DNA of 32,000 nt from Pseudanabaena sp. (GTDB lineage: Bacteria; Cyanobacteriota; Cyanobacteriia; Pseudanabaenales; Pseudanabaenaceae): NCBI GenBank assembly GCA_044350865.1, contig JBILGV010000024.1, forward strand, positions 1 through 32,000, given 5' to 3'. Below, one piece after another: positions 1-18,422 of the stretch (position 1 is its first letter; the number at the start of each line of letters is the position of its first letter). Under the pieces are notes generated by a model. The model worked only from the letters and a program-made list of their open reading frames with translations, was not told where the DNA came from and did no database searches. Made by a program: the position numbers and the translations under genes.

Positions 1-102
1 TTCCACAAAACTTTCGACGGTTGTATTGGGTAAATTTAGCAACCTATCAAGATACAAGTCCATACCTGTCACTAGCTATATTTGTAACTTATTATACATT
101 AA

Positions 103-1353
103 TCCCCTCAAATCCAGAAGAGCCGTTTTATTGCAATTGGCGACAATAAAGATGAAACAAACAAAGCAATTATTGATATATATTCAAGTGGAATTAATAC
201 ATCTCGTGACACTTGGGCTTATAGCTTTTCTCGTCAATCCCTAACAGACAATATGAAGAGAATGATTTCTTTTTATAATTCTCAAGTTGAAAAGTTCAAA
301 GAACATTCTAAAGACAAACTATTCAAAGATACTAAAGATAGGCAAGAAAAAGTAGAAGCGTTTATTAGCAATGATCCCCAAAATATAAGTTGGTCAAGAG
401 GATTAAAAAACGATCTTGGAAGACTTGTTAATTATGATTTCTCTGATGATTCAGTTGTTAAGGGAATGTATAGACCATACTGCAAACAGTGGTGCTATTT
501 CAACAAGTATTTTAATGACATGATCTACCAAATGCCTAGAATTTTTCCAAACAACAATCTGGAAAATCTAGTGATTAGCGTAACTGGAATAGGCGCAAGT
601 AAAGGTTTTTCAGCATTATTAACTGACTCTCTTCCAAATTACCATTTACACGATACTGGTAAATGCTTCCCACTTTATACCTATGAAAAACCCGAACCAA
701 CCGACCAAACCACACTCTTCCTAACCGAAACAGGCTACACCAAAAAAGAAAACATCCCCGACACCATCCTCAGCGACTTCCAAACCACCTATCAAGACCA
801 AACCATAACCAAAGAAGACATCTTCTATTACATCTATGGCATCCTTCATAGCCCCGAATACAAACAACGCTTCGCCGCCGACCTCAAAAAAATGTTGCCC
901 CGCATCCCCTACGCCGCCGACTTCCACAGCTTCAGCACCGCAGGACGCAACCTCGCCCAATGGCATCTCAACTATGAAAATATAGAACCCTATCCATTAG
1001 AAGAATTCAAAAGCGAACTCTATCTCGAAGCCAAAGACTATCGCGTAGAGCGCATGAAATTCCCCAACCGCAACAAAGCCGTAGACAAAACCACAATTAT
1101 CTACAACAGCAAAATCAGCCTCTCAGGCATACCATTAGAAGCCTACGAATACATCGTCAATGGCAAACCCGCCCTAGAATGGATCATGGAACGCTATCAA
1201 CTCACCCGCGACAAAGATAGCGGAATTACCAACAATCCCAACGACTGGTCAGACGACCCGCGCTACATCATCGATCTGGTTAAACGCATCGTGCGCGTAA
1301 GTGTCGAGTCGGTTAAAATTGTTAACAGCTTGCCACCATTGAATGAGAGATAG
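103..1353 (+). CDS. Type ISP restriction-modification enzyme, C-terminal (target-recognition) portion. The 5' part is outside the window and the frame is broken upstream of nt 103, so this may be a pseudogene
   Basis: Frame 1 is open 103-1353 (track ORF 253-1353). FIAIGDNK...SSGINTSRDTWAYSFS (about 127-231) and YIVNGKPALEWIMERYQLTRDKDSGITNNPNDW...VSVESVKIVNSLP match the pattern I associate with the C-terminal domain of LlaGI/LlaBIII-type Type ISP enzymes. Frame 1 has stops at 31, 37, 73, 85 and 100, so the large upstream helicase/methylase part cannot continue in this frame. Confidence 0.6.
   Translation, partial: SPQIQKSRFIAIGDNKDETNKAIIDIYSSGINTSRDTWAYSFSRQSLTDNMKRMISFYNSQVEKFKEHSKDKLFKDTKDRQEKVEAFISNDPQNISWSRGLKNDLGRLVNYDFSDDSVVKGMYRPYCKQWCYFNKYFNDMIYQMPRIFPNNNLENLVISVTGIGASKGFSALLTDSLPNYHLHDTGKCFPLYTYEKPEPTDQTTLFLTETGYTKKENIPDTILSDFQTTYQDQTITKEDIFYYIYGILHSPEYKQRFAADLKKMLPRIPYAADFHSFSTAGRNLAQWHLNYENIEPYPLEEFKSELYLEAKDYRVERMKFPNRNKAVDKTTIIYNSKISLSGIPLEAYEYIVNGKPALEWIMERYQLTRDKDSGITNNPNDWSDDPRYIIDLVKRIVRVSVESVKIVNSLPPLNER
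1312..1350 (+). repeat. Direct repeat copy A: native 3' end of the Type ISP gene (codons VKIVNSLPPLNER)
   Basis: 39 nt repeated at 1980-2018 with 33/39 identity. All 6 differences are synonymous in the reading frames used at each copy. Confidence 0.85.
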
Positions 1354-1582
1354 ACATACCATGCTTAAACCGATCACCCTTCAAGTCGAAGCCCCCATCG
1401 CTGAGGCATATCAAAATACAACACCTGAAAACCGTCAAGCCTTGCAAACCCTTGTCAGCATCTTTTTACAATGTATTTCCCAACCAACCCCACTCCAAAA
1501 AGTAGTCCAAGAAATTCGTTTAGAAGCACAACAAAAGGGACTTACTCCCGAAATCTTAGAGGAAATCCTCAAGGATGACTAA
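1343..1582 (+). CDS. Putative antitoxin partner of the PIN toxin (small acidic protein)
   Basis: 79-aa ORF with an alternative ATG at 1361. It begins across the stop codon of the Type ISP gene (1351-1353) and overlaps the downstream PIN gene by 8 nt. Assignment is by position only; no family was recognised. Confidence 0.5.
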   Translation: MRDRHTMLKPITLQVEAPIAEAYQNTTPENRQALQTLVSIFLQCISQPTPLQKVVQEIRLEAQQKGLTPEILEEILKDD

Positions 1583-2024
1583 ACTAAGATTAGTAATCGA
1601 TACCAACATCTTGGTCAGTGGCTTAATGTCTGTAAATTCTTTGCCTCAGCAGGTTTTTGACTATGCCACATCTGAAGCAATACTGCTGATATCAGATGAA
1701 GTTCAATCAGAAATAGAAAATGTCATCAGTCGCCCAAAACTCCAAAAATACATCACCTTAGAACGGCGTACTAAATTTTTAGCTGAATTAAGCCAGCAGG
1801 TCGAAAGAGTCACAATCAACCAGCAAATTCGAGCCTGTCGCGATCCCAAAGATGACAAGTTCCTAGAATTAGCTGTCTGCGGTGAAGCCAACTACATCAT
1901 TACAGGCGATGCCGATCTTTTAGATTTGCACCCATTCCAAAATATTTTTATCATCAAAGCCGCTAATTTTTTAACCGTAGTTAAAATCGTGAATAGCTTA
2001 CCACCATTGAATGAGCGCACCTAA
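1575..2024 (+). CDS. PIN-domain toxin (type II toxin-antitoxin system, PIN_3-like)
   Basis: LVIDTNILVSGL at the N-terminus, and DPKDDKFLELAVCGEANYIITGDADLL, give the acidic residues typical of PIN ribonucleases. The last 14 aa (VKIVNSLPPLNERT) are encoded by repeat copy B. Confidence 0.8.
   Translation: MTKLRLVIDTNILVSGLMSVNSLPQQVFDYATSEAILLISDEVQSEIENVISRPKLQKYITLERRTKFLAELSQQVERVTINQQIRACRDPKDDKFLELAVCGEANYIITGDADLLDLHPFQNIFIIKAANFLTVVKIVNSLPPLNERT
1980..2018 (+). repeat. Direct repeat copy B: second, diverged copy of the Type ISP gene 3' end, now forming the C-terminal tail of the PIN ORF
   Basis: See copy A. Both copies sit in a translated frame and encode the identical peptide. Confidence 0.85.
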
Positions 2025-2072
2025 ACCAAAAATGCTAAGATATGCTCACTCGCTTTGTAAGGAGGTTTCTGT

Positions 2073-2297
2073 ATGACTAACGCAACCTATGATGAAATTT
2101 TTGGAACAGTCTTAACCCTGCCCCCTCTATACCGCGCCATGCTTGCAGAACATCTCCTTAACAGCCTTGATGAAATTAATCCCGAAATCGAAACAGCTTG
2201 GAATAGAGAAATATCTAATCGTATAGAAGCGATCGACCAAGGTAAAGTTACCTTAATTCCAGCCGATCAAGTATTGCAAAAACTAAGGAATCGCTAA
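2073..2297 (+). CDS. Putative addiction-module antitoxin component (partner of the ParE/RelE toxin)
   Basis: 74 aa. LPPLYRAMLAEHLLNSLDE...ETAWNREISNRIEAIDQGKV resembles the 'putative addiction module component' family. AAGGAGG lies 8 nt upstream of the ATG. TAATG overlap with the next gene. Confidence 0.75.
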   Translation: MTNATYDEIFGTVLTLPPLYRAMLAEHLLNSLDEINPEIETAWNREISNRIEAIDQGKVTLIPADQVLQKLRNR

Positions 2298-2587
2298 TGT
2301 TTCTTGAGTTTGATCCTAATGCACAACTAGAACTTGAAGCAGCAGCTTCATACTATGACAGCATCAATCGTAAACTTAACCAAGCCTTTATTGATGCCGT
2401 TGAAAGAACCCTCAATCGCATCGTTCAGTTTCCAAATGCTTGGACACCAATGATTGCAGATGCTAGACGTTGCCATATTGACGGATTCCCCTATGGCATT
2501 GTGTACCGAGTTTGTGGCGATCGCATCCAGATCCTAGCTGTTATGCACCTACAACGCAAACCAAACTATTGGATAGATAGAAATTAG
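2297..2587 (+). CDS. Type II toxin-antitoxin system RelE/ParE-family toxin
   Basis: 96 aa. FPNAWTPMIADARRCHIDGFPYGIVYRVCGDRIQILAVMHLQRKPNYW is a typical ParE/RelE plasmid-stabilisation fold signature. Translationally coupled to 2073-2297. Confidence 0.8.
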   Translation: MFLEFDPNAQLELEAAASYYDSINRKLNQAFIDAVERTLNRIVQFPNAWTPMIADARRCHIDGFPYGIVYRVCGDRIQILAVMHLQRKPNYWIDRN

Positions 2588-2616
2588 ACATAAATCCGTT
2601 AAAAACATTATTCACT

Positions 2617-2808
2617 ATGAAAGATCCTTCAATTAAAATCAAAAAACCACCCAAGGAAGCCCTCATTGCCTTATGCCGTTCTGCTAAAAAAATGTCTGAA
2701 TTATTAAAAGCTCACGGCATTAGCGAAGATGAAATCATTGCCGAATTTAACGCTATGCGTAAACAAGCAAGGAAAGATGAAGACAATAATGGAACAGCCA
2801 AAACGTAG
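2617..2808 (+). CDS. Hypothetical small basic/acidic protein
   Basis: 63-aa ORF with an ATG start, co-oriented within the TA stack. No family recognised. Confidence 0.35.
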   Translation: MKDPSIKIKKPPKEALIALCRSAKKMSELLKAHGISEDEIIAEFNAMRKQARKDEDNNGTAKT

Positions 2809-2831
2809 AAATTTATCTTGGTAGTTAAATT

Positions 2832-3161
2832 ATGCCTGAAACATTACAGTACATAACCAACGAACAAGGCGATCGCATCGGCGTTGTCTTAGATTTAGAT
2901 ACCTATTCTCGACTTACTCCCGCTTTAGATCCTGAATATCTTATTGGCTTAAACACAGAAGAACTAAAAGCCCTCGCTACTTGCAAATTAGCCCTAACCG
3001 ATCAAAATCACCTAGATCAACTAATCGATAGAAACACCGAAAATTCACTCTCTGAAGAGGAACTTGATGATTTAGATGACCTTCTAGAGAAAGTGGATCA
3101 TCTCACTATCCTAAAAACTCGCGCCAGATACACCCTTAAGTCAAACAAAAAAGCAACCTAG
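2832..3161 (+). CDS. Hypothetical protein with an antitoxin-like N-terminus
   Basis: 109 aa. The N-terminal ITNEQGDRIGVVLDLDTYSRL resembles Phd/YefM-style antitoxin N-termini, and the C-terminus is acidic and helical. No adjacent toxin is seen. Confidence 0.4.
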   Translation: MPETLQYITNEQGDRIGVVLDLDTYSRLTPALDPEYLIGLNTEELKALATCKLALTDQNHLDQLIDRNTENSLSEEELDDLDDLLEKVDHLTILKTRARYTLKSNKKAT

Positions 3162-3185
3162 CCAAAATTGGTTAAGGTTGCTTTT
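3147..3185. terminator. Bidirectional intrinsic terminator between convergent genes
   Basis: AAAAAGCAACCT (3147-3158) pairs perfectly with AGGTTGCTTTTT (3174-3185). There is an A-run on one side and a T-run on the other. The stop codon of 2832-3161 sits in the loop. Confidence 0.7.
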
Positions 3186-3280
3186 TGAAAGGCTTACGAA
3201 GCAATGCTTTCAAATTTTTTCAAAAATAAAGTCCAGAAACCTTGAGAAGGGCTTAGCCATTTCCAACGTTTCTCGGTTTT

Positions 3281-4522
3281 CTAGAAACTAGGACTATTGA
3301 GCAGTAAATCAGAATTTAAAGTCACTGCTAAGTCAGTATTTGGATTGACAGAAGAGAGGGTAACACTGTCACGTCCTAGAAACAGACCGAGTAGAGTGGC
3401 AATCCCTGCACCACCAAGGATTTCTTCAGTGGCAAGAGCGCGATCGCCAGTTACAGCCGAGATCGCGGCGGCGGCAGCAGCACCGAGAGCAGCATTCTGG
3501 ACTAGTTTGCCCACGCTGATACCCTTATCAACTCTCTCAGTTGTAGTCACCACCTTAGAAGTGCCATTAAGTGGCAGCCTTTGTCCATTCGCAAACACAA
3601 GTTCGCTAGCAAAGAACTGAGCGCCACCAGATACGGTTCTCAATTCTCCAGACACTTGCGTACCCGCAGGAATTAAAATTTGACCTTGAGCATTGGTAAT
3701 ATTTTGTGGCACTGTGAGAATCAAAGGTACTTTTTCATCAGGACCTAACAAGATCTTGTCCTTGGAATACTGCACGGCGATCGTATTACCTGCGGGAATT
3801 CTCACCTGATTTTGGACTGGGGGATTATTGGTTTGACCGACGATATAGGGTGAAGCGATCGCTGTCACCTGCCCCGATCGCACTAAGCCTTGATAGATAA
3901 ACGCGGCAACTTCGGCTCTAGTCGCGGTTTGGTTAGGATTTAGAAACTGGACATTAGGATAGTTAACGACCATCCGATTTTCTGTCGCCGCCGCCACACT
4001 ACTTCGCGCATAGTCAGGAATGCTTGCAGCATCTGCATAAGTCTGCAAAATTGTCTCAGGTGCTTGATTTGCAGTGTAATTCAGACCATTAGCAAGGGAT
4101 ACTAAAATCTGTACGCGGGGGATATTTTGAGCGGGTTCAAAAACATTGCCTGGATAACCTGCCATAAAGCCTGTTGTGTATGCTTTTTGAATTGCTGAAG
4201 CAGCCCAATAGTTCGGATCAACATCTACGAACGTGACAGCATTGCGAGTCGGAGCTTTAGTCATCGCTTTGTTCAACATCGCGGCAAACTGCGCTCTAGT
4301 TACGGGATCGTTAGGACGAAATCCACCATCAGGGAAGCCTTTGATAATGTCTCTGGATGCTAACTCTTGAATAAAAGTTTGCGCCCAATAGTTGGTCGGT
4401 ACATCATTAAAAGTTGTCTGAGCAAGGGCGGAGGCTATGCTGATGAAGGGAATTGCAGAGCTACCAATGAAGCTAACAGCGACAAGTAAAGCAGTAGTAG
4501 AACGTTGCGTTTGATTTGTCAT
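3281..4522 (-). CDS. S-layer homology (SLH) domain protein with signal peptide and a glycine/alanine-rich C-terminal hydrophobic segment
   Basis: Three SLH-like repeats (FNDVPTNYWAQTFIQELASRDIIKGFPDGGFRPNDPVTRAQFAAML; FVDVDPNYWAASAIQKAY; YADAASIPDYARSSVAAA). The N-terminus is a hydrophobic signal. Confidence 0.8.
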   Translation of the reverse strand: MTNQTQRSTTALLVAVSFIGSSAIPFISIASALAQTTFNDVPTNYWAQTFIQELASRDIIKGFPDGGFRPNDPVTRAQFAAMLNKAMTKAPTRNAVTFVDVDPNYWAASAIQKAYTTGFMAGYPGNVFEPAQNIPRVQILVSLANGLNYTANQAPETILQTYADAASIPDYARSSVAAATENRMVVNYPNVQFLNPNQTATRAEVAAFIYQGLVRSGQVTAIASPYIVGQTNNPPVQNQVRIPAGNTIAVQYSKDKILLGPDEKVPLILTVPQNITNAQGQILIPAGTQVSGELRTVSGGAQFFASELVFANGQRLPLNGTSKVVTTTERVDKGISVGKLVQNAALGAAAAAAISAVTGDRALATEEILGGAGIATLLGLFLGRDSVTLSSVNPNTDLAVTLNSDLLLNSPSF

Positions 4523-6779: not shown

Positions 6780-7760
6780 ATGTTTTATCCTCGTCTTAGC
6801 GGCGATCGCTATATCAACCCACTTACAGATTTTGGCTTCAAGCGCCTATTTGGAACCGAGCCGAACAAAAACCTGTTGATTGATTTTCTGAATGTAATCT
6901 TACCAACCCAACATCGGGTCAAAGATCTCACCTATCGCAGTACTGAAAACCTTGGCAATACGCCCCTTGATCGCAAGGCAGTCTTTGATCTTTACTGTCA
7001 AAGCGAAAAGGGCGAGAAATTCATTGTCGAAATGCAAAAGGCTAAACATAATTATTTTAAAGATCGCAGCATTTACTACGCATCTTTTCCCATTCAAGAC
7101 CAAGCAGAAAAAGGAGATTGGAACTACAAACTTGATCCAGTTTATACCATCGGCATTTTAGACTTTGTTTTTGATGAAGATAAAAACGATGACACTCTCT
7201 TACATATCGTTGAACTCAAAGATCAAAATTGCAAAGTTTTCTACGAAAAGCTGAAATTTATTTATCTGGAATTACCAAAATTCAAAAAAACAATCGATCA
7301 ACTAAACGACCATTTTGACAAGTGGTTGTTTTTGCTGAAACATCTACCCGATTTAGAAGAACCGCCTTTACCATTGCAAGAAAACGTATTTATGCAACTA
7401 TTTGAAGTTGCCCGAATTACGAACTTTTCTCCAGATGAACGGGAAGCCTATGAAAACAGCTTAAAGTATTATCGAGACATGAATGGTGTCATTGAAACAG
7501 CAAGAGAAGAAGGGAAAGTTCAAGGTATTCAAGAGGGTAAGGCTCAAGGTATTCAAGAGGGGAAGGCTCAAGGTGTGCAAGAGGGGAAAAGCTCTCTTTT
7601 GCTAAAACTGCTTTCTCGCAAACTAGGAACCATATCTGATGAAATTAAAGTTCTGTTGCACGAGTTATCGTCAGAACGATTAGATGTTTTGAGTGAAGCT
7701 TTGTTTGAATTAGAAAGCTTGGCAGATTTACACAATTGGCTCGAAAATATTAACAACTAG
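6780..7760 (+). CDS. Rpn-family recombination-promoting nuclease / PD-(D/E)XK putative transposase
   Basis: N-terminal YINPLTDFGFKRLFG...NKNLLIDFLNVIL, DLYCQSEKGEKFIVEMQ, and a C-terminal EGKxQGxQ repeat followed by an LLL..L helix are typical of this family. Confidence 0.8.
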   Translation: MFYPRLSGDRYINPLTDFGFKRLFGTEPNKNLLIDFLNVILPTQHRVKDLTYRSTENLGNTPLDRKAVFDLYCQSEKGEKFIVEMQKAKHNYFKDRSIYYASFPIQDQAEKGDWNYKLDPVYTIGILDFVFDEDKNDDTLLHIVELKDQNCKVFYEKLKFIYLELPKFKKTIDQLNDHFDKWLFLLKHLPDLEEPPLPLQENVFMQLFEVARITNFSPDEREAYENSLKYYRDMNGVIETAREEGKVQGIQEGKAQGIQEGKAQGVQEGKSSLLLKLLSRKLGTISDEIKVLLHELSSERLDVLSEALFELESLADLHNWLENINN

Positions 7761-8156
7761 CAATATCCTCGGCGAGTAAAATTAATGGTTCGTTCTCGAT
7801 CTCAAGTATCGCCTCGGTAGTAGAGGGAAGCGGAGGCTCTGTATTCAAGAGGGTAAGGCTCAAGGTATTCAAGAGGGGAAGGCTCAAGGTGTGCAAGAGG
7901 GGAAAAGCTCTCTTTTGCTAAAACTGCTTTCTCGCAAACTAGGAACCATATCTGATGAAATTAAAGTTCTGTTGCACGAGTTATCGTCAGAACGATTAGA
8001 TGTTTTGAGTGAAGCTTTGTTTGAATTAGAAAGCTTGGCAGATTTACACAATTGGCTCGAAAATATTAACAACTAGCAATATCCTCGGCGAGTAAAATTA
8101 ATGGTTCGTTCTCGATCTCAAGTATCGCCTCGGTAGTAGAGGGAAGCGGAGGCTCT
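7525..8156. repeat. Perfect tandem duplication, 2 x 316 bp (7525-7840 and 7841-8156)
   Basis: By-eye comparison finds the two units identical. The twin track ORFs at 7568-7756 and 7884-8072 are offset by exactly 316 nt. Each unit is the last 236 nt of the Rpn-family gene plus 80 nt downstream. Confidence 0.9.
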
Positions 8157-15661: not shown

Positions 15662-15700
15662 AACTGAATTTTAAGAATATTTATTGTTTATTTGTTTGTA

Positions 15701-15746
15701 TTTTACAGGTAGGCGATCGCGCATAACCTTAACGATTCAGTCCATT
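15701..15746 (-). repeat. Relic copy of the cobS 3' end (direct repeat X), marking the distal boundary of the inserted cassette
   Basis: 40/46 nt identical to 17668-17713. On the minus strand it encodes WTESLRLCAIAYL-stop, against the cobS C-terminus WTETLSLCAIAYL-stop. The DUF4276-like ORF ends (TGA, 15737-15739) inside it in another frame. Confidence 0.85.
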
Positions 15747-16474
15747 ACATCAACTGCTTTTACCGCGCTCATTAGATTTTGAGTAAAGACTGCATATCCA
15801 CTTGGGCAATGAGTTTTTATAACTGCTAAATCTATGTCATGAGCCAAATTCCAGCGAATCTGTAGTGGGCGTTGATTGCTGGTATTCTCGTCAAGATAGG
15901 TGGATTGGGCGATCGCGCTTTCTAAAATTTCTTTTGAATTTTCTAAATCTTCTAAGTTTTCCAGCTTTTCAATCTCTACACCTAAAATCCCTGAAACAGT
16001 CTGAGTATCGGCAAGTAACCATGTTTCAAAATTTCTAATCGCTAATCCACCCGCACTGCGATCGCTAATTTCCTGTTCATCAGCATCTAAATGATTACTA
16101 CGAATTTTAGCTAAAGCAAGTTCTAAATCACGCTGTCTCTTAGGCAAAATGTCATCAGCATCAGCCACAATCAAAATCATATCGACCTCTTCAGGTTTCC
16201 ACGCGATGACCACTTGGGCGAGATATTTTGGCTGTAAAATTGAGTGTCCAGTACCCCGCGTAAAAAGCCCACTTTCATGATTTGTAGGATGTCGTTGCAC
16301 AAAGTCACAATCTAAACCAATACCTTGAATTTCTCGTCTAATCAGCGTATGCAAAGCACCTTCTTTACCTCTTTCAATAACTTTGCCACCATCTTCTGGG
16401 TTGATGTATGGAATACTTGCACCGAGTTCTGCTTCACCTTCAGCAATTAGTCCAATCCGAATCCGACGATTCAT
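15737..16474 (-). CDS. DUF4276-like protein with Toprim-type acidic motifs (putative nuclease subunit)
   Basis: 245 aa. RIGLIAEGEAE (aa 6-16), ILIVADADD (aa 100-108) and IRNFETWLLAD (aa 146-156) match the EGxxE / DxD / E-x-W-L-L-A-D pattern I recall for DUF4276. ATGA overlap with the upstream ATPase gene. Confidence 0.65.
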   Translation of the reverse strand: MNRRIRIGLIAEGEAELGASIPYINPEDGGKVIERGKEGALHTLIRREIQGIGLDCDFVQRHPTNHESGLFTRGTGHSILQPKYLAQVVIAWKPEEVDMILIVADADDILPKRQRDLELALAKIRSNHLDADEQEISDRSAGGLAIRNFETWLLADTQTVSGILGVEIEKLENLEDLENSKEILESAIAQSTYLDENTSNQRPLQIRWNLAHDIDLAVIKTHCPSGYAVFTQNLMSAVKAVDVMD

Positions 16475-17661
16475 GCAGGATTGCCTCCAAACTGGTTAGT
16501 AAACCAAAGCTCACCGAGAGAGCCATCATAGGCTTCGAGAGCTTTTTGAAAACGCACAGAATCTGTGGGTAAATTATGGACTTGGGTTTTACCTTCATTG
16601 TCAAGCTCTACAGCGCGAACTTGGTGCGGCTCGACATAATTTAGTAATACTGGTGAATGGGTTGTAATCAATACCTGAACTGGCTTACCTGTAATCCCTT
16701 CTGTGGAAACAAGTTTTAATAGCTCTATCATTTTATGTAATAACCAAGGATGCACACCATTTTCAATTTCTTCAAAGCAAATAATACTTGGAGTATCTTC
16801 TTGGTATAACGCTGTTAGAAAAGCTAAAATTCTTAATGTCCCATCAGATATATCAGAAGCAGGAATAGGCGTTTCCGAATATTTATCAATTAACTGCAAT
16901 GAAAAAGTTTGATCTTTACCACGCAGTAATGAGATTCTTTGAATATTAGGAACTAGTAATCTTAGACGTTCTTCTAACTCATCAAAACTTTTACGATTAC
17001 TAAATAAAATGTCGGCTAAAGCATAAGAAATCCCCTCTCCTGTTCTTTCCATGTTGCTAAATGATTGCACTTCGTCAGACAAACTTAACGGTGCGAAATC
17101 ATAAATACAAATCTTACGCAGGGCGCTAGCTATGGGAGAAGATTGATAATTATTAGAAACCAAAAATGTTCTTAAGGGTTCTGTCCATTTATCTGAACAA
17201 CGAATGTCAACGGCTATATTGTCAGAACCAACTAGGGCATTTTGAAAAGTATCTATGCTAAAGCTTTGCTGATGATAGTTAAAACTTGCTACAAGTTCAG
17301 AAAATCTTGGTAAATCAATATTTTTTTCTAATGTCGTGCTGATCATAAAGCAAATATGATCTAGACTTCCATGCCAAAACTTAGACTCAATATTCCGTTG
17401 TTTTTTACTTATGCTTTCTAATGATTGAGAGAAAAAATCTTTGACTAGATTATTACTCGATATGTTTATCAGCCTTTGTAAACAATTAGAAAATACAAAT
17501 AGCGATTCACAAATATTTGATTTCCCAGAGCCATTTGGTCCTATGAAAACTGTTAGTGGTTGGAGATCGATTTCGGTATCAAAGAGGCTCTTATAGTGTT
17601 GAACTTTGAGTTTAGTTAACATCTGTTTGGTGGTTGAGGTCAAATATTGAATTAGAGTCAT
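16471..17661 (-). CDS. ABC/SMC-type AAA_21-like ATPase (partner of the DUF4276-like protein)
   Basis: Walker A GPNGSGKS (aa 41-48, nt 17518-17541), signature-like SDGTLR (272-277), Walker B IICFEE (293-298), NGVHP, and H-loop TTHSP (333-337). About 220 aa is inserted between Walker A and the signature, as in RecF/OLD/AriA-type ATPases. The ATG lies 8 nt after the cobS stop. Confidence 0.8.
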   Translation of the reverse strand: MTLIQYLTSTTKQMLTKLKVQHYKSLFDTEIDLQPLTVFIGPNGSGKSNICESLFVFSNCLQRLINISSNNLVKDFFSQSLESISKKQRNIESKFWHGSLDHICFMISTTLEKNIDLPRFSELVASFNYHQQSFSIDTFQNALVGSDNIAVDIRCSDKWTEPLRTFLVSNNYQSSPIASALRKICIYDFAPLSLSDEVQSFSNMERTGEGISYALADILFSNRKSFDELEERLRLLVPNIQRISLLRGKDQTFSLQLIDKYSETPIPASDISDGTLRILAFLTALYQEDTPSIICFEEIENGVHPWLLHKMIELLKLVSTEGITGKPVQVLITTHSPVLLNYVEPHQVRAVELDNEGKTQVHNLPTDSVRFQKALEAYDGSLGELWFTNQFGGNPA

Positions 17662-17667
17662 ACTTTA

Positions 17668-17713
17668 TTTTACAGGTAAGCGATCGCACATAAACTTAGC
17701 GTCTCAGTCCATT
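17668..17713 (-). repeat. Direct repeat Y: the functional 3' end of cobS (proximal boundary of the cassette)
   Basis: Pairs with 15701-15746 (40/46 identical; 4 of the 6 differences are synonymous in the cobS frame). Confidence 0.85.
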
Positions 17714-18422
17714 CGACGATCGCCCCGTAAGTATCACCAGTCTGTCCACCAAGTTGACGGTTAAACCAAGCACCGATGAGCCATGCCAAGCTAAAACCAA
17801 TTACCGTTAAGCCAATCCCTAAATAAAGTGAGTTGTAAACATAGGCGATCGCCAAATTACCCATCGTTAACAAGATCGCCACTAGCCACACTTGCCAATG
17901 ATGCAAATCCTCTTGATGAAATTTGCCCTTACCGATCGCCTTGAGATAGGGATAAGCCATAATTGCCCGTAACTGTCCCCACCTTGCCCATGCCCAAACG
18001 CTAGTCAAAATCCAAAAACGATGATCTTTAATCGCAGCGAGAGCGACAACTTTTAATAACAAAATCACAATTCCTGCGATCGCCCCGAAAGCACCTGTAT
18101 TACTATCCGCCATCACCTCAAGGCGGCGATTCGGATCGGTGACAGCCAGACCATCGGCGGTATCCATTGCCCCATCAAGATGCAAACCACCTGTGATTAA
18201 TAAGCCTAATAAAATCGTGACGAGCGATCGCAGATAAATAAATTCTGATGCAGGTTTAATGAGTCCTAAAGCAAAGTCCAGAGAAGCGATCGCGCTACCG
18301 ATGAAAATACCGATCAAGGGAGCATAGAGAGCAATTCCTCGAAAATCTAATGTTCCTTGAGGGCGCAGAGGCAAACAAGTATAAAAAATTAGTGCTGCTT
18401 GAAATTTTCGCCAATGATACAT
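17670..18422 (-). CDS. cobS: Adenosylcobinamide-GDP ribazoletransferase (cobalamin synthase)
   Basis: FYTCLPL near the N-terminus, GGLHLDGAMDTADGL, and a polytopic membrane profile of 250 aa are typical CobS features. Confidence 0.9.
   Translation of the reverse strand: MYHWRKFQAALIFYTCLPLRPQGTLDFRGIALYAPLIGIFIGSAIASLDFALGLIKPASEFIYLRSLVTILLGLLITGGLHLDGAMDTADGLAVTDPNRRLEVMADSNTGAFGAIAGIVILLLKVVALAAIKDHRFWILTSVWAWARWGQLRAIMAYPYLKAIGKGKFHQEDLHHWQVWLVAILLTMGNLAIAYVYNSLYLGIGLTVIGFSLAWLIGAWFNRQLGGQTGDTYGAIVEWTETLSLCAIAYL

What the first reader, a model, noticed from the sequence alone, without database searches (positions are those of the whole stretch)
1312..2018. The antitoxin/PIN cassette is bracketed by a duplicated 3' end of the Type ISP gene; all repeat differences are synonymous and the PIN toxin has captured the host-gene tail
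Seen directly: the last 13 codons of the Type ISP ORF (1312-1350, VKIVNSLPPLNER) recur at 1980-2018 with 33/39 identity. All six differences are synonymous (att/atc, gtt/gtg, aac/aat, ttg/tta, aga/cgc). The second copy is in frame with the PIN ORF and forms its C-terminus (…VVKIVNSLPPLNERT-stop). The cassette's first ORF starts across the Type ISP stop codon. Established knowledge: VSxExxKIVxxLP is, as far as I recall, part of the native Type ISP C-terminus and not of PIN domains. Inference: a two-gene TA cassette integrated into the extreme 3' end of the R-M gene, by the same footprint type as at cobS. A TA module hitch-hiking on an R-M gene's transcript and C-terminal codons is unusual.
Basis: partly seen in the sequence, partly recalled or inferred. 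Interest (0 to 1): 0.72.

Follow-up and report, generated by a model that had tools for sequence, protein, structure and literature searches.

The report
Restriction-gene tail remnants separating toxin-antitoxin cassettes
The 39-base repeat is real, but it is one trimmed copy of a family of restriction-gene end fragments that separate small toxin-antitoxin cassettes in arrays across the cyanobacterial genus Pseudanabaena, and a 56-base deletion, not selection, put it in frame with the PIN toxin.

Summary
Observation confirmed. Window 1312-1350 and 1980-2018 match at 33/39, all six differences are silent, and copy 2 is the in-frame C-terminus of a PIN_3 toxin.

The peptide VKIVNSLPPLNER is the native, widely conserved end of Type ISP enzymes. 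PIN relatives outside one Pseudanabaena subgroup lack it.

The interpretation needs revising. In 24 Pseudanabaena genome loci, fragments of the ISP 3' end (typically about 92 nt, equal to window 1258-1349) lie between two-gene cassettes. The cassettes include antitoxin+PIN_3, Unstab+ParE, ParD+ParE, o63+PIN_2, RelB-like+HNH, F1+TumE and PD-T4-4. Their order differs between genomes.

Copy 2 is the remnant that precedes the Unstab-ParE cassette. Sister genomes keep all 92 nt there, and PIN ends out of frame (…AIALHP*). A 56-nt deletion between short direct repeats gave the in-frame tail. The silent differences are most simply inherited divergence between ISP alleles.

Many remnant boundaries fall on HIP1 octamers (GCGATCGC). 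The cobS footprint has an empty site, a configuration without the duplication, and AATGGA microhomology.

Best mechanism (inferred): recombination anchored in the gene end, with a short-homology join on the other side. I found no integrase and no attC-like hairpin. The ISP gene here is interrupted by an IS.

The parts
1..126 (.). Terminal fragment of an ISL3-family insertion sequence that interrupts the Type ISP gene. The contig ends 3 nt upstream of the window.
   Evidence: ISP homology (tblastn with the 1524-aa ISP of L023) starts at window 127, equal to aa 1117. Window 18-124 is 90% identical to L018 6625-6731, which lies next to an ISL3-like transposase ORF. The contig end is shown.
127..1353 (+). 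3' part of a Type ISP restriction-modification gene (C-terminal specificity domain). It is 5'-interrupted in this genome.
   Evidence: PF18135 Type_ISP_C E=1.2e-101. PADLOC REase_MTase_IIG E=1.7e-119. 84% identical to aa 1117-1524 of a full-length orthologue.
1258..1349 (+). The stretch of the ISP gene that recurs elsewhere as the usual inter-cassette remnant of about 92 nt.
   Evidence: nhmmer mapping of 61 copies in 32 loci; many start at 1254-1263 and end at 1349-1359.
1312..1350 (+). Repeat copy 1: the native last 13 codons of the ISP gene (stop at 1351-1353).
   Evidence: The peptide is conserved in ISP homologues.
1361..1582 (+). Putative antitoxin of cassette A (73 aa, no family match). 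It starts 7 nt after the ISP stop and overlaps the PIN start by 8 nt.
   Evidence: ORF list and gene calls. It always precedes the PIN gene in relatives. No Pfam, NCBIfam or PADLOC hit.
1575..2024 (+). PIN_3 toxin ORF (149 aa). PIN-derived sequence runs to about 1978; the last 14 codons are ISP-derived.
   Evidence: PF13470 E=1.3e-20 and TIGR00305 E=4.1e-29, covering residues 5-118. C-terminal classes of close homologues are listed.
1980..2018 (+). Repeat copy 2: a trimmed ISP 3' remnant (equivalent to ISP 1311-1349) that belongs upstream of cassette B. A 56-nt deletion put it in frame with PIN.
   Evidence: nhmmer hit at 1979-2017. In alignment A3, L013, L020 and L021 keep the full remnant between PIN and Unstab. 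CAGTTGCG direct repeats lie 56 nt apart in L018 and L027.
2019..2072 (+). Leader of cassette B (CACCTAAACCAAAAATGCTAAGATATGC...). In every genome examined it directly follows an ISP tail ending GAGCG[CA]AC.
2073..2587 (+). Cassette B: Unstab_antitox antitoxin (2073-2297) and ParE toxin (2297-2587).
   Evidence: PF09720 E=1.7e-14 and PF05016 E=2.9e-10.
2572..2597 (+). Probable short ISP remnant (about ISP 1212-1238) that supplies the last codons and stop of ParE. Relatives continue here into a full remnant.
   Evidence: Alignment: L013, L014 and L022 read ParE...GATAGAAATTAGATATAACCCCAACGACTGATCAGGCGATCGC... compared with ISP GATAGCGGAATTACCAACAATCCCAACGACTGG. This is weaker evidence than for copy 2.
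2617..3161 (+). Two further cassette genes: o63 (2617-2808; in other genomes a related o63 variant, with a different leader, is paired with a PIN_2 toxin) and o109 (2832-3161; weak RelB-like match; in other genomes paired with an HNH protein).
17666..17713 (-). cobS 3' end (copy 1 of the second footprint). cobS is 17670-18422 on the minus strand.
   Evidence: D8; PF02654; sequence.
15737..17661 (-). Two-gene defence cassette HEC-01: AAA_15/AAA_21 ATPase (16471-17661) and DUF4276 protein (15737-16474). It starts 8 nt after the cobS stop.
15699..15746 (-). Displaced copy of the cobS tail (42/48 identical; 4 silent and 2 replacement differences in the cobS frame). It supplies the DUF4276 stop codon.
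   Evidence: The empty site L035 aligns to both copies.

Best explanation
The repeat is a recombination scar inside a cassette array, not the footprint of a self-mobile element.

Shown:
- Copy 1 is the native end of a Type ISP gene.
- Copy 2 is one of a family of ISP 3'-end remnants that lie between small TA or defence cassettes downstream of ISP genes in Pseudanabaena. Some arrays are detached from any ISP gene.
- Each cassette type begins within about 25 nt after an ISP stop codon.
- Each remnant's left edge goes with the preceding cassette, and its last bases go with the following cassette.
- In sister genomes the PIN-to-Unstab spacer is the full remnant of about 92 nt, and PIN ends out of frame there (…AIALHP*).
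- The window lineage lacks 56 nt of that remnant, so PIN reads the last 13 ISP codons in frame.

Inferred:
- Arrays grow when DNA carrying 'ISP end + cassette' recombines homologously in the ISP end on one side and joins illegitimately at a short identity on the other side. That identity is often the HIP1 octamer GCGATCGC, and the join falls inside the resident ISP end. The resident end, with whatever followed it, is pushed downstream as a remnant.
- This is homology-facilitated illegitimate recombination, or equivalently a Campbell-type event.
- Homologous recombination or gene conversion among remnants then shuffles the cassettes.
- The six silent differences are most simply divergence inherited from two ISP alleles that evolved under ISP's own constraint.
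- The 56-nt loss was a slippage-type deletion between CAGTT(GCG) direct repeats.
For: 1. The tail is native to ISP and foreign to PIN.
2. A tail pattern found 24 Pseudanabaena genome loci. tblastn and nhmmer maps show 1-4 remnants per locus between the cassettes, and the cassette order differs between genomes.
3. Alignment A3 shows the full remnant between PIN and Unstab in L013, L020 and L021, and a gap of about 56 nt in the window and L015. CAGTTGCG repeats lie 56 nt apart in L018 and L027.
4. The 140-aa PIN ending TAIALHP* is ACTGCGATCGCGCTACATCCTTGA, which is PIN reading into the remnant.
5. Copy 2 ends GAGCGCACCTAAACC, as every Unstab-linked remnant does. By my reading of the alignments, it matches those remnants at 36-37 of 39 positions, against 33/39 for copy 1. 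It also matches the ABRG5-3 ISP end at 34/36.
6. ISP genes of different strains are about 87% identical, similar to the 85% identity between the two copies.
7. Remnant edges lie on full HIP1 sites in at least five junction types: PIN::1258, hisS 3' fragment::1258, TumE cassette::1187, and two others at about 1190 and 1147. Six of about 16 junction types fall within ISP 1254-1263.
8. For the cobS case, L035 is an empty site. L056 has cobS followed by the same cassette with no clearly recognisable tail copy. The junction sits on AATGGA, shared by the DUF4276 end and cobS.
9. I found no integrase or recombinase Pfam hit within 6-10 kb of three arrays. The remnant shows no excess hairpin potential (z between -0.6 and +1.3).
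10. Polymorphisms inside remnants are mosaic with respect to both neighbouring cassettes, as expected from general recombination.
11. Published work links HIP1 to recombination: a Chi-like enhancement of homologous integration (bioRxiv 10.1101/2024.09.10.611283), and promotion of excision (Robinson et al. 1997, seen only as a reference title in PMC5861425).
Against: - All remnants share derived characters that are absent from 11 functional ISP ends: AAGTGC(G)ATCG (an R-to-C change plus a 1-nt insertion) and HIP1 at about 1250. They therefore descend from, or are homogenised with, one pseudogene-type copy. They were not each displaced from a working gene. The simple serial-displacement picture needs added gene conversion or repeated duplication of one resident copy.
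- Both edges of the spacer unit are surprisingly well defined across seven or more cassette types (left edge about 1258, right edge within about 25 nt of the stop). That is what a site-specific system would give.
- Several 125x junctions have no intact HIP1.
- HIP1-like sites are dense in remnants (10 CGATCG per kb), which raises the chance of coincidence.
- Junction types may not be independent events.
- Natural competence of Pseudanabaena was not established here.
- No recombination intermediate was observed.
Confidence: 0.6

Rival explanations
1. A dedicated site-specific cassette system, like an integron. The remnant of about 92 nt would act as an attC-like site, the ISP gene end as an attI-like site, and a recombinase encoded elsewhere in the genome would insert, excise and reorder cassettes.
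For: The arrays consist of compact cassettes, mostly TA pairs, separated by repeats of about 90-100 nt. Cassette order varies between genomes. The last gene of a cassette often ends inside the repeat, as PIN, ParE and DUF4276 do. Left edges cluster at ISP 1254-1263, and cassette starts lie within about 25 nt of the ISP stop in seven or more cassette types.
Against: No Phage_integrase or recombinase hit lies within 6-10 kb of the arrays in ABRG5-3, Chao 1811 or ULC187. The remnant has no hairpin beyond shuffled controls on either strand. Left edges also occur at 1144, 1157, 1187, 1212, 1240, 1303 and 1310. Internal polymorphisms are not partitioned at one crossover point. The cobS footprint shows the same anatomy at an unrelated sequence, with simple microhomology.
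Confidence: 0.12
2. RecA-dependent cassette circles. A unit made of one remnant and one cassette is excised by recombination between flanking remnants or HIP1 sites. It then re-enters any ISP end or remnant by a single homologous crossover, which duplicates the remnant by a Campbell-type event. This is a topological variant of the best explanation.
For: This model explains three observations: the cassette-end::1258 junction travels with the preceding cassette, a cassette can sit after any remnant or after an intact ISP end, and the remnants form one sequence family. Direct repeats of 92 nt at 80-90% identity are adequate recombination substrates.
Against: No circles or tandem cassette duplicates were seen. 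It does not explain how a new cassette type first acquires a remnant. The cobS case has a configuration with no clearly recognisable repeat (L056), which fits a linear one-sided event better.
Confidence: 0.2
3. A single TA cassette inserted into the last 13 codons of the ISP gene and duplicated 39 nt. Both copies then diverged under purifying selection because the PIN toxin needs the captured peptide.
For: Six of six differences are silent (P=6.5e-5 under random substitution). The fused form persists in 22 or more protein clusters from many samples.
Against: Sister genomes have a 92-nt remnant at the same junction, and PIN reads it out of frame there. Copy 2 is linked to the Unstab cassette. 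In the fusions the tail varies more than the PIN body (9.5% against 5.5% pairwise), including L-to-S and V-to-M/A changes at positions invariant in 115 ISP proteins. The polymorphic sites are the same third-codon positions that vary among bona fide ISP ends.
Confidence: 0.06

Closest known systems
Homology-facilitated illegitimate recombination (one homologous anchor plus a microhomology join), and merodiploid formation during transformation
   Same: There is one-sided homology (the ISP or cobS gene) and a short-identity join on the other side (HIP1 8-mer; AATGGA). Foreign genes are added next to the anchor. The mechanism is described in PMC3240628 (abstract). Duplication generated during natural transformation is described in PMC3784515 (abstract).
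   Different: Here the join falls inside the resident copy of the anchor, so the gene end is duplicated. The events are inferred from natural genomes rather than observed. They recur at one locus to build arrays.
Integron cassette arrays (attI/attC, IntI)
   Same: Both are arrays of compact cassettes, often TA pairs, separated by repeats of about 60-140 nt. Order is variable, and the stop codon of the last gene often lies in the repeat. These integron properties are recalled from general knowledge.
   Different: The repeat here is a decayed fragment of a protein-coding gene end. It shows no hairpin symmetry, no IntI gene lies nearby, and its left edges vary.
Orphan C-terminal modules downstream of rhs, cdiA or maf polymorphic toxin genes (3'-end displacement)
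   Same: Incoming DNA recombines in a conserved part of the gene and pushes the older 3' end, with its partner gene, downstream. This produces arrays of 3' stubs followed by small genes. This is recalled from general knowledge.
   Different: In those systems the displaced pieces are alternative functional toxin domains with their immunity genes. Here the displaced pieces are non-coding stubs of 40-215 nt, and the cargo is unrelated TA or defence modules.
Prophages 21 and e14 in the E. coli icd gene (duplicated alternative 3' end with mostly silent differences)
   Same: The inserted DNA is bracketed by two versions of a host gene's 3' end, and they differ mainly at silent sites because both evolved as that gene's end. 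This is recalled from general knowledge.
   Different: That integration is catalysed by an integrase at a defined core site. No integrase is present here, and the repeat lengths vary.
HIP1 (GCGATCGC) as a recombination-related motif in cyanobacteria
   Same: HIP1 sites sit exactly at several remnant junctions. Published work reports that HIP1 raises homologous integration in a Chi-like manner. Promotion of excision is indicated by the title of Robinson et al. 1997, seen as a reference.
   Different: Those studies used engineered constructs. I found no report of HIP1 at natural cassette junctions in three literature searches.

Membership tests
Type ISP restriction-modification enzyme | C-terminal specificity domain (PF18135) ending in the conserved ...RVSxExxKIVxxLPxLNE tail | tested here: met
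   PF18135 E=1.2e-101. The tail is conserved in nearly all of 120 homologues.
Type ISP restriction-modification enzyme | Single polypeptide carrying an Mrr-like nuclease, a helicase-like motor, a methyltransferase and a specificity domain | tested here: not met
   In the window, ISP homology starts at aa 1117 of 1524, next to an IS end. Full-length orthologues exist in relatives (L023 1524 aa, L011 1437 aa; domain list for ABRG5-3).
Type II toxin-antitoxin module, PIN_3 (TIGR00305) type | PIN-domain toxin preceded by a small overlapping partner gene | tested here: met
   PF13470 E=1.3e-20 and TIGR00305 E=4.1e-29. The 73-aa upstream ORF overlaps by 8 nt and is always co-inherited.
Type II toxin-antitoxin module, PIN_3 (TIGR00305) type | Toxicity of the PIN protein and its neutralisation by the partner | not testable with these tools
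   The antitoxin has no family match. This needs expression assays.
Integron | IntI tyrosine recombinase gene adjacent to the array | tested here: not met
   No Phage_integrase hit within 6-10 kb in three arrays. Whole genomes were not searched.
Integron | attC sites that are imperfect palindromes folding as single-stranded hairpins | tested here: not met
   DNA folding of three remnants or ISP ends on both strands gave z-scores from -0.60 to +1.27 against shuffles.
Transposon or insertion-sequence target-site duplication | Repeats of fixed length, identical at insertion, flanking an element with its own ends or transposase | tested here: not met
   Repeat length varies from 39 to about 215 nt between genomes. 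No transposase lies in the cassette. Copy 2 is closer to other alleles than to copy 1.
Homology-facilitated illegitimate recombination scar | Homology on one side only, a microhomology at the other junction, and existence of empty and donor-like configurations | tested here: met
   For cobS: empty site L035, cassette with no clearly recognisable duplication in L056, and AATGGA at the junction. For ISP: HIP1 8-mers at five junction types. The process itself is inferred.
Diversity-generating retroelement (template and variable repeat at a gene's 3' end) | Differences confined to adenines of the template, with a reverse transcriptase nearby | tested here: not met
   The differences are t/c, t/g, c/t, g/a, a/c and a/c. 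No reverse transcriptase was found among the neighbouring ORFs.

The most novel reading that the evidence does not exclude
Pseudanabaena maintains an integron-like pool of TA and defence cassettes that needs no dedicated recombinase. A decayed stub of a restriction-gene end serves as portable homology for cassette gain, loss and reshuffling. The cyanobacterial HIP1 octamer is the preferred crossover point for the illegitimate joins. If so, this would be natural-genome evidence that HIP1 acts as a recombination hotspot, and the HIP1-enriched stubs would show HIP1 being generated once coding constraint is lost.
Probability: 0.3. Interest if true: 0.75.

Novelty: new variant of a known kind. Interest (0 to 1): 0.55.

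Why it matters
Defence and TA genes cluster next to restriction systems, but how they get there without mobile-element genes is rarely visible. This locus preserves the joins. There are gene-end stubs between cassettes, short identities at the junctions, an empty site and a configuration without the duplication for a second case. It therefore gives a concrete, testable route for building defence islands by host recombination alone.

It also bears on the long-standing question of what HIP1 does. Several natural junctions lie exactly on HIP1 sites. The stubs carry 10 CGATCG per kb, against none in 11 functional gene ends. Finally, it is a caution for annotation: both common C-termini of this PIN family are read-through into foreign DNA, and a run of silent differences need not mean the fused peptide is functional.

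Tried and rejected
- Chance repeat: rejected.
- Assembly artefact: rejected. The same structure occurs in independent assemblies and complete genomes.
- DGR-like mutagenesis: rejected. The differences are not adenine-specific and no reverse transcriptase was seen.
- attC-like hairpin: folding was not better than shuffles.
- Remnant as a general promoter: only the ParD-ParE cassette gets a strong composite promoter (ISP-tail TTGCCA, 16 nt, TATAAT, 11/12). No promoter or terminator was predicted between ISP and the antitoxin.
- Plasmid origin: no megablast match of window 1-3300 in PLSDB.
- Generality beyond Pseudanabaena: stand-alone ISP_C ORFs in Planktothrix and Nostoc turned out to be ISP genes split by an IS or by an integrase-bearing element, not cassette arrays.
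- Literature: three full-text searches found no description of ISP-linked TA arrays or of HIP1 at natural cassette junctions. One search failed on syntax.
- Not done: structure prediction, the third protein-database search and the representative-library search were judged unnecessary.
Full report
**Observation**

Window 1312-1350 and 1980-2018 are 33/39 identical and both encode VKIVNSLPPLNER. The six differences lie in five codons and all are silent. No comparable repeat within 5 kb appeared in 100 Markov shuffles of the window. Six random substitutions would leave the peptide unchanged with probability 6.5e-5.

Copy 1 is the end of an ORF with a Type ISP C-terminal specificity domain (PF18135, E=1.2e-101). 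Copy 2 is the in-frame end of a PIN_3 toxin ORF (1575-2024). The PIN domain models stop at residue 113-118 of 149. A 73-aa ORF (1361-1582) precedes the PIN gene and overlaps it.

**Whose peptide is it?**

Nearly all of 120 Type ISP homologues, from cyanobacteria, Endozoicomonas, Opitutus and others, end in ...RVS[VL]E[ST]xKIVxxLPxLNE... The tail is therefore native to ISP.

Close PIN relatives (over 90% identity, all Pseudanabaena-like) fall into C-terminal classes:
- ...FLTAVKIVNSLPPLNER(T), 148/149 aa, about 22 clusters
- ...FLTAIALHP, 140 aa, the majority
- ...FLTVV or ...FLTLV, 136 aa
- a few others

More distant PIN_3 proteins end a few residues after the FL motif and have none of these tails.

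**The wider picture**

In Pseudanabaena sp. ABRG5-3, an ISP gene is followed by a PD-T4-4 defence pair. Next comes a 215-nt copy of the ISP 3' end, and then the same antitoxin-PIN pair.

A degenerate 24-mer for the tail found 24 loci in Pseudanabaena genomes. tblastn and nhmmer mapping show one to four ISP 3' remnants per locus, always between small cassettes:
- A: antitoxin + PIN_3
- B: Unstab_antitox + ParE
- C: ParD + ParE
- D: o63 + PIN_2
- E: RelB-like o109 + HNH
- F: F1 + TumE
- G: DUF29
- H: PD-T4-4

Cassette order differs between genomes:
- L013: rem-A-rem-B-rem-C-o109-rem-D
- L014: rem-B-rem-A
- L017: ISP-E-rem-F-rem-D-C
- L010: ISP-F-rem-A
- L011: ISP-C
- L023: ISP-D

Arrays end at three different chromosomal contexts (psbA, hisS, SLH/tyrA). 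Some have no ISP gene within 10 kb. The window reads ISP-A-rem-B-(short rem)-o63-o109-SLH.

**What copy 2 is**

The bases after GAATGAG go with the following cassette:
- A: ...AGATAGACATACCATG
- B: ...CGCACCTAAACCAAAAATGCTAAG
- C: ...CGCA(CC)ATATAATC
- D: ...AGATAGAAAAACTTGC

The left edge of a remnant goes with the preceding cassette: about 1258 after PIN, about 1212-1224 after ParE, and 1144 after PD-T4-4.

Copy 2 ends like every B-linked remnant. In L013, L020 and L021 the PIN-to-Unstab spacer is the full remnant of about 92 nt (ISP 1258-1349). The window and L015 lack about 56 nt of it (alignment A3). In L018 and L027 the missing stretch is flanked by CAGTTGCG direct repeats exactly 56 nt apart. 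This points to a short-repeat deletion that shifts the frame by two.

The 140-aa PIN ending TAIALHP* is ACTGCGATCGCGCTACATCCTTGA, which is PIN reading out of frame into the same remnant. Both common PIN C-termini are therefore read-through into ISP-derived DNA. The 'captured tail' is a by-product.

**Why only silent differences?**

ISP genes of different strains are about 87% identical, close to the 85% between the two copies. Copy 2 matches the ABRG5-3 ISP end at 34/36. By my count from the alignments, it matches B-linked remnants at 36-37/39, better than it matches copy 1.

The variable sites are the same third-codon positions that vary among bona fide ISP ends. Within PIN fusions, the tail is more variable than the PIN body (9.5% against 5.5% pairwise). 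It also changes residues that are invariant in 115 ISP proteins. The silent pattern is therefore most simply inherited from ISP alleles, and there is no sign of constraint on the tail within PIN.

**Mechanism**

I found no integrase near three arrays. The remnant has no hairpin potential beyond shuffled controls. Left edges vary from 1144 to 1314, and internal polymorphisms are mosaic. These points argue against an integron-like enzyme and for general recombination.

Junctions often sit on short identities. Full HIP1 octamers occur at PIN::1258, at hisS 3' fragment::1258 (hisS itself carries a HIP1 about 75 nt from its stop), at the TumE cassette::1187, and at two further junctions. Six of about 16 junction types fall within ISP 1254-1263. 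By a rough hand calculation that assumes the junction types are independent, about one would be expected.

The cobS footprint in the same window gives the clearest case:
- cobS stop, then 8 nt, then a HEC-01 pair (AAA_15/21 + DUF4276), then a 48-nt copy of the cobS tail.
- L035 is an empty site.
- L056 has cobS followed by the cassette with no clearly recognisable duplicate of the tail.
- The right junction lies on AATGGA, shared by the DUF4276 end and cobS.

I conclude that incoming 'gene end + cassette' DNA pairs homologously with the resident gene end and is joined at a short identity inside it, which displaces the resident end downstream. This is inferred, not observed. Published work gives HIP1 a Chi-like effect on integration. 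Promotion of excision is indicated only by a reference title (Robinson et al. 1997).

**Complications**

All remnants share AAGTGC(G)ATCG (an R-to-C change plus a 1-nt insertion) and a HIP1 at about 1250. Both are absent from 11 functional ISP ends. The remnants are therefore one family, either propagated or homogenised, rather than independent fossils of working genes.

The well-defined unit of about 92 nt keeps a site-specific mechanism alive as a minority view. So does a RecA-dependent circle model. The tight left junctions may simply reflect the tiny spacer between the convergent ISP and hisS genes, which leaves little room for an insertion that disrupts neither gene.

**Status of the ISP gene and of the transcript idea**

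ISP homology in the window begins at position 127 (aa 1117 of 1524), directly after about 107 nt that match the end of an ISL3-type IS. The R-M gene is therefore interrupted here, as it is in ABRG5-3, Planktothrix and Nostoc.

No promoter or terminator is predicted between ISP and the antitoxin. Only cassette C gains a strong composite promoter from the ISP tail. Whether the cassettes depend on read-through was not tested.

**Verdict**

The feature is a new variant of known recombination-scar and cassette-array phenomena. It is of moderate interest, mainly for how defence islands assemble without mobile-element genes and for a possible natural role of HIP1.

Noticed in passing
window 15699-18422 (minus strand): Second footprint of the same kind. 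cobS is followed 8 nt later by a HEC-01 pair (AAA_15/21 ATPase + DUF4276) and then by a 48-nt copy of the cobS tail, which supplies the DUF4276 stop codon. An empty site (L035) and a configuration with no clearly recognisable duplicate (L056) exist. The junction lies on AATGGA.
   Followed up: yes
window 1-126; L018 5375-6731: The Type ISP gene is cut at window 127 by the end of an ISL3-family insertion sequence, which is probably why the contig ends here. ISP genes are also split by IS or integrase-bearing elements in ABRG5-3 (L002), Planktothrix (L114) and Nostoc (L116).
   Followed up: partly
remnants in L002-L032 compared with functional ISP ends (alignment): ISP remnants carry 15 HIP1 and 47 CGATCG sites in 4.7 kb, whereas 11 functional ISP 3' ends carry none in 1.3 kb. 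At four positions the stubs have changed towards GCGATCGC. The copies are related, so the counts are not independent.
   Followed up: partly
L009 4084-4153, L021, L027 3273-3355, L031; hisS end in L003 8448-8530: Fragments of 65-80 nt from the 3' end of hisS (convergent with ISP in one chromosomal context) are also scattered in the arrays. Each is fused at a HIP1 site to an ISP remnant that starts at 1258.
   Followed up: partly
L027 3804-4316; L017 (oriented) 2501-3013: A 170-aa HNH endonuclease ORF carries the last 27 or so residues of the cassette-A antitoxin as its C-terminus, followed by a PIN fragment. This is another in-frame fusion made by an internal deletion in the array.
   Followed up: no
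L013 6502-6529 (also L022, L019, L021): A composite promoter-like site (11/12 match) precedes the ParD-ParE cassette. The -35 TTGCCA comes from the ISP tail codons and the perfect TATAAT comes from the cassette.
   Followed up: partly
L056 388-473: An insert of about 85 nt with terminal inverted repeats (CGTAGGATGGGTTA...CCTACGTAGG, MITE-like) lies between the cobS stop and the HEC-01 cassette.
   Followed up: no
window 7525-8140: A perfect 300-nt tandem duplication (spacing 316) contains 24-nt sub-repeats, in and just after the 326-aa PDDEXK_2/DUF4351 ORF (6780-7760).
   Followed up: no
L023 4790-4850, L031, L018 (leader of the o63/PIN_2 cassette): A near-perfect palindrome GTAGGGGCAATTCATGAATTGCCCCTAC lies between the ISP tail and the o63 start codon. 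Its role (terminator, operator or small repeat element) is unknown.
   Followed up: no
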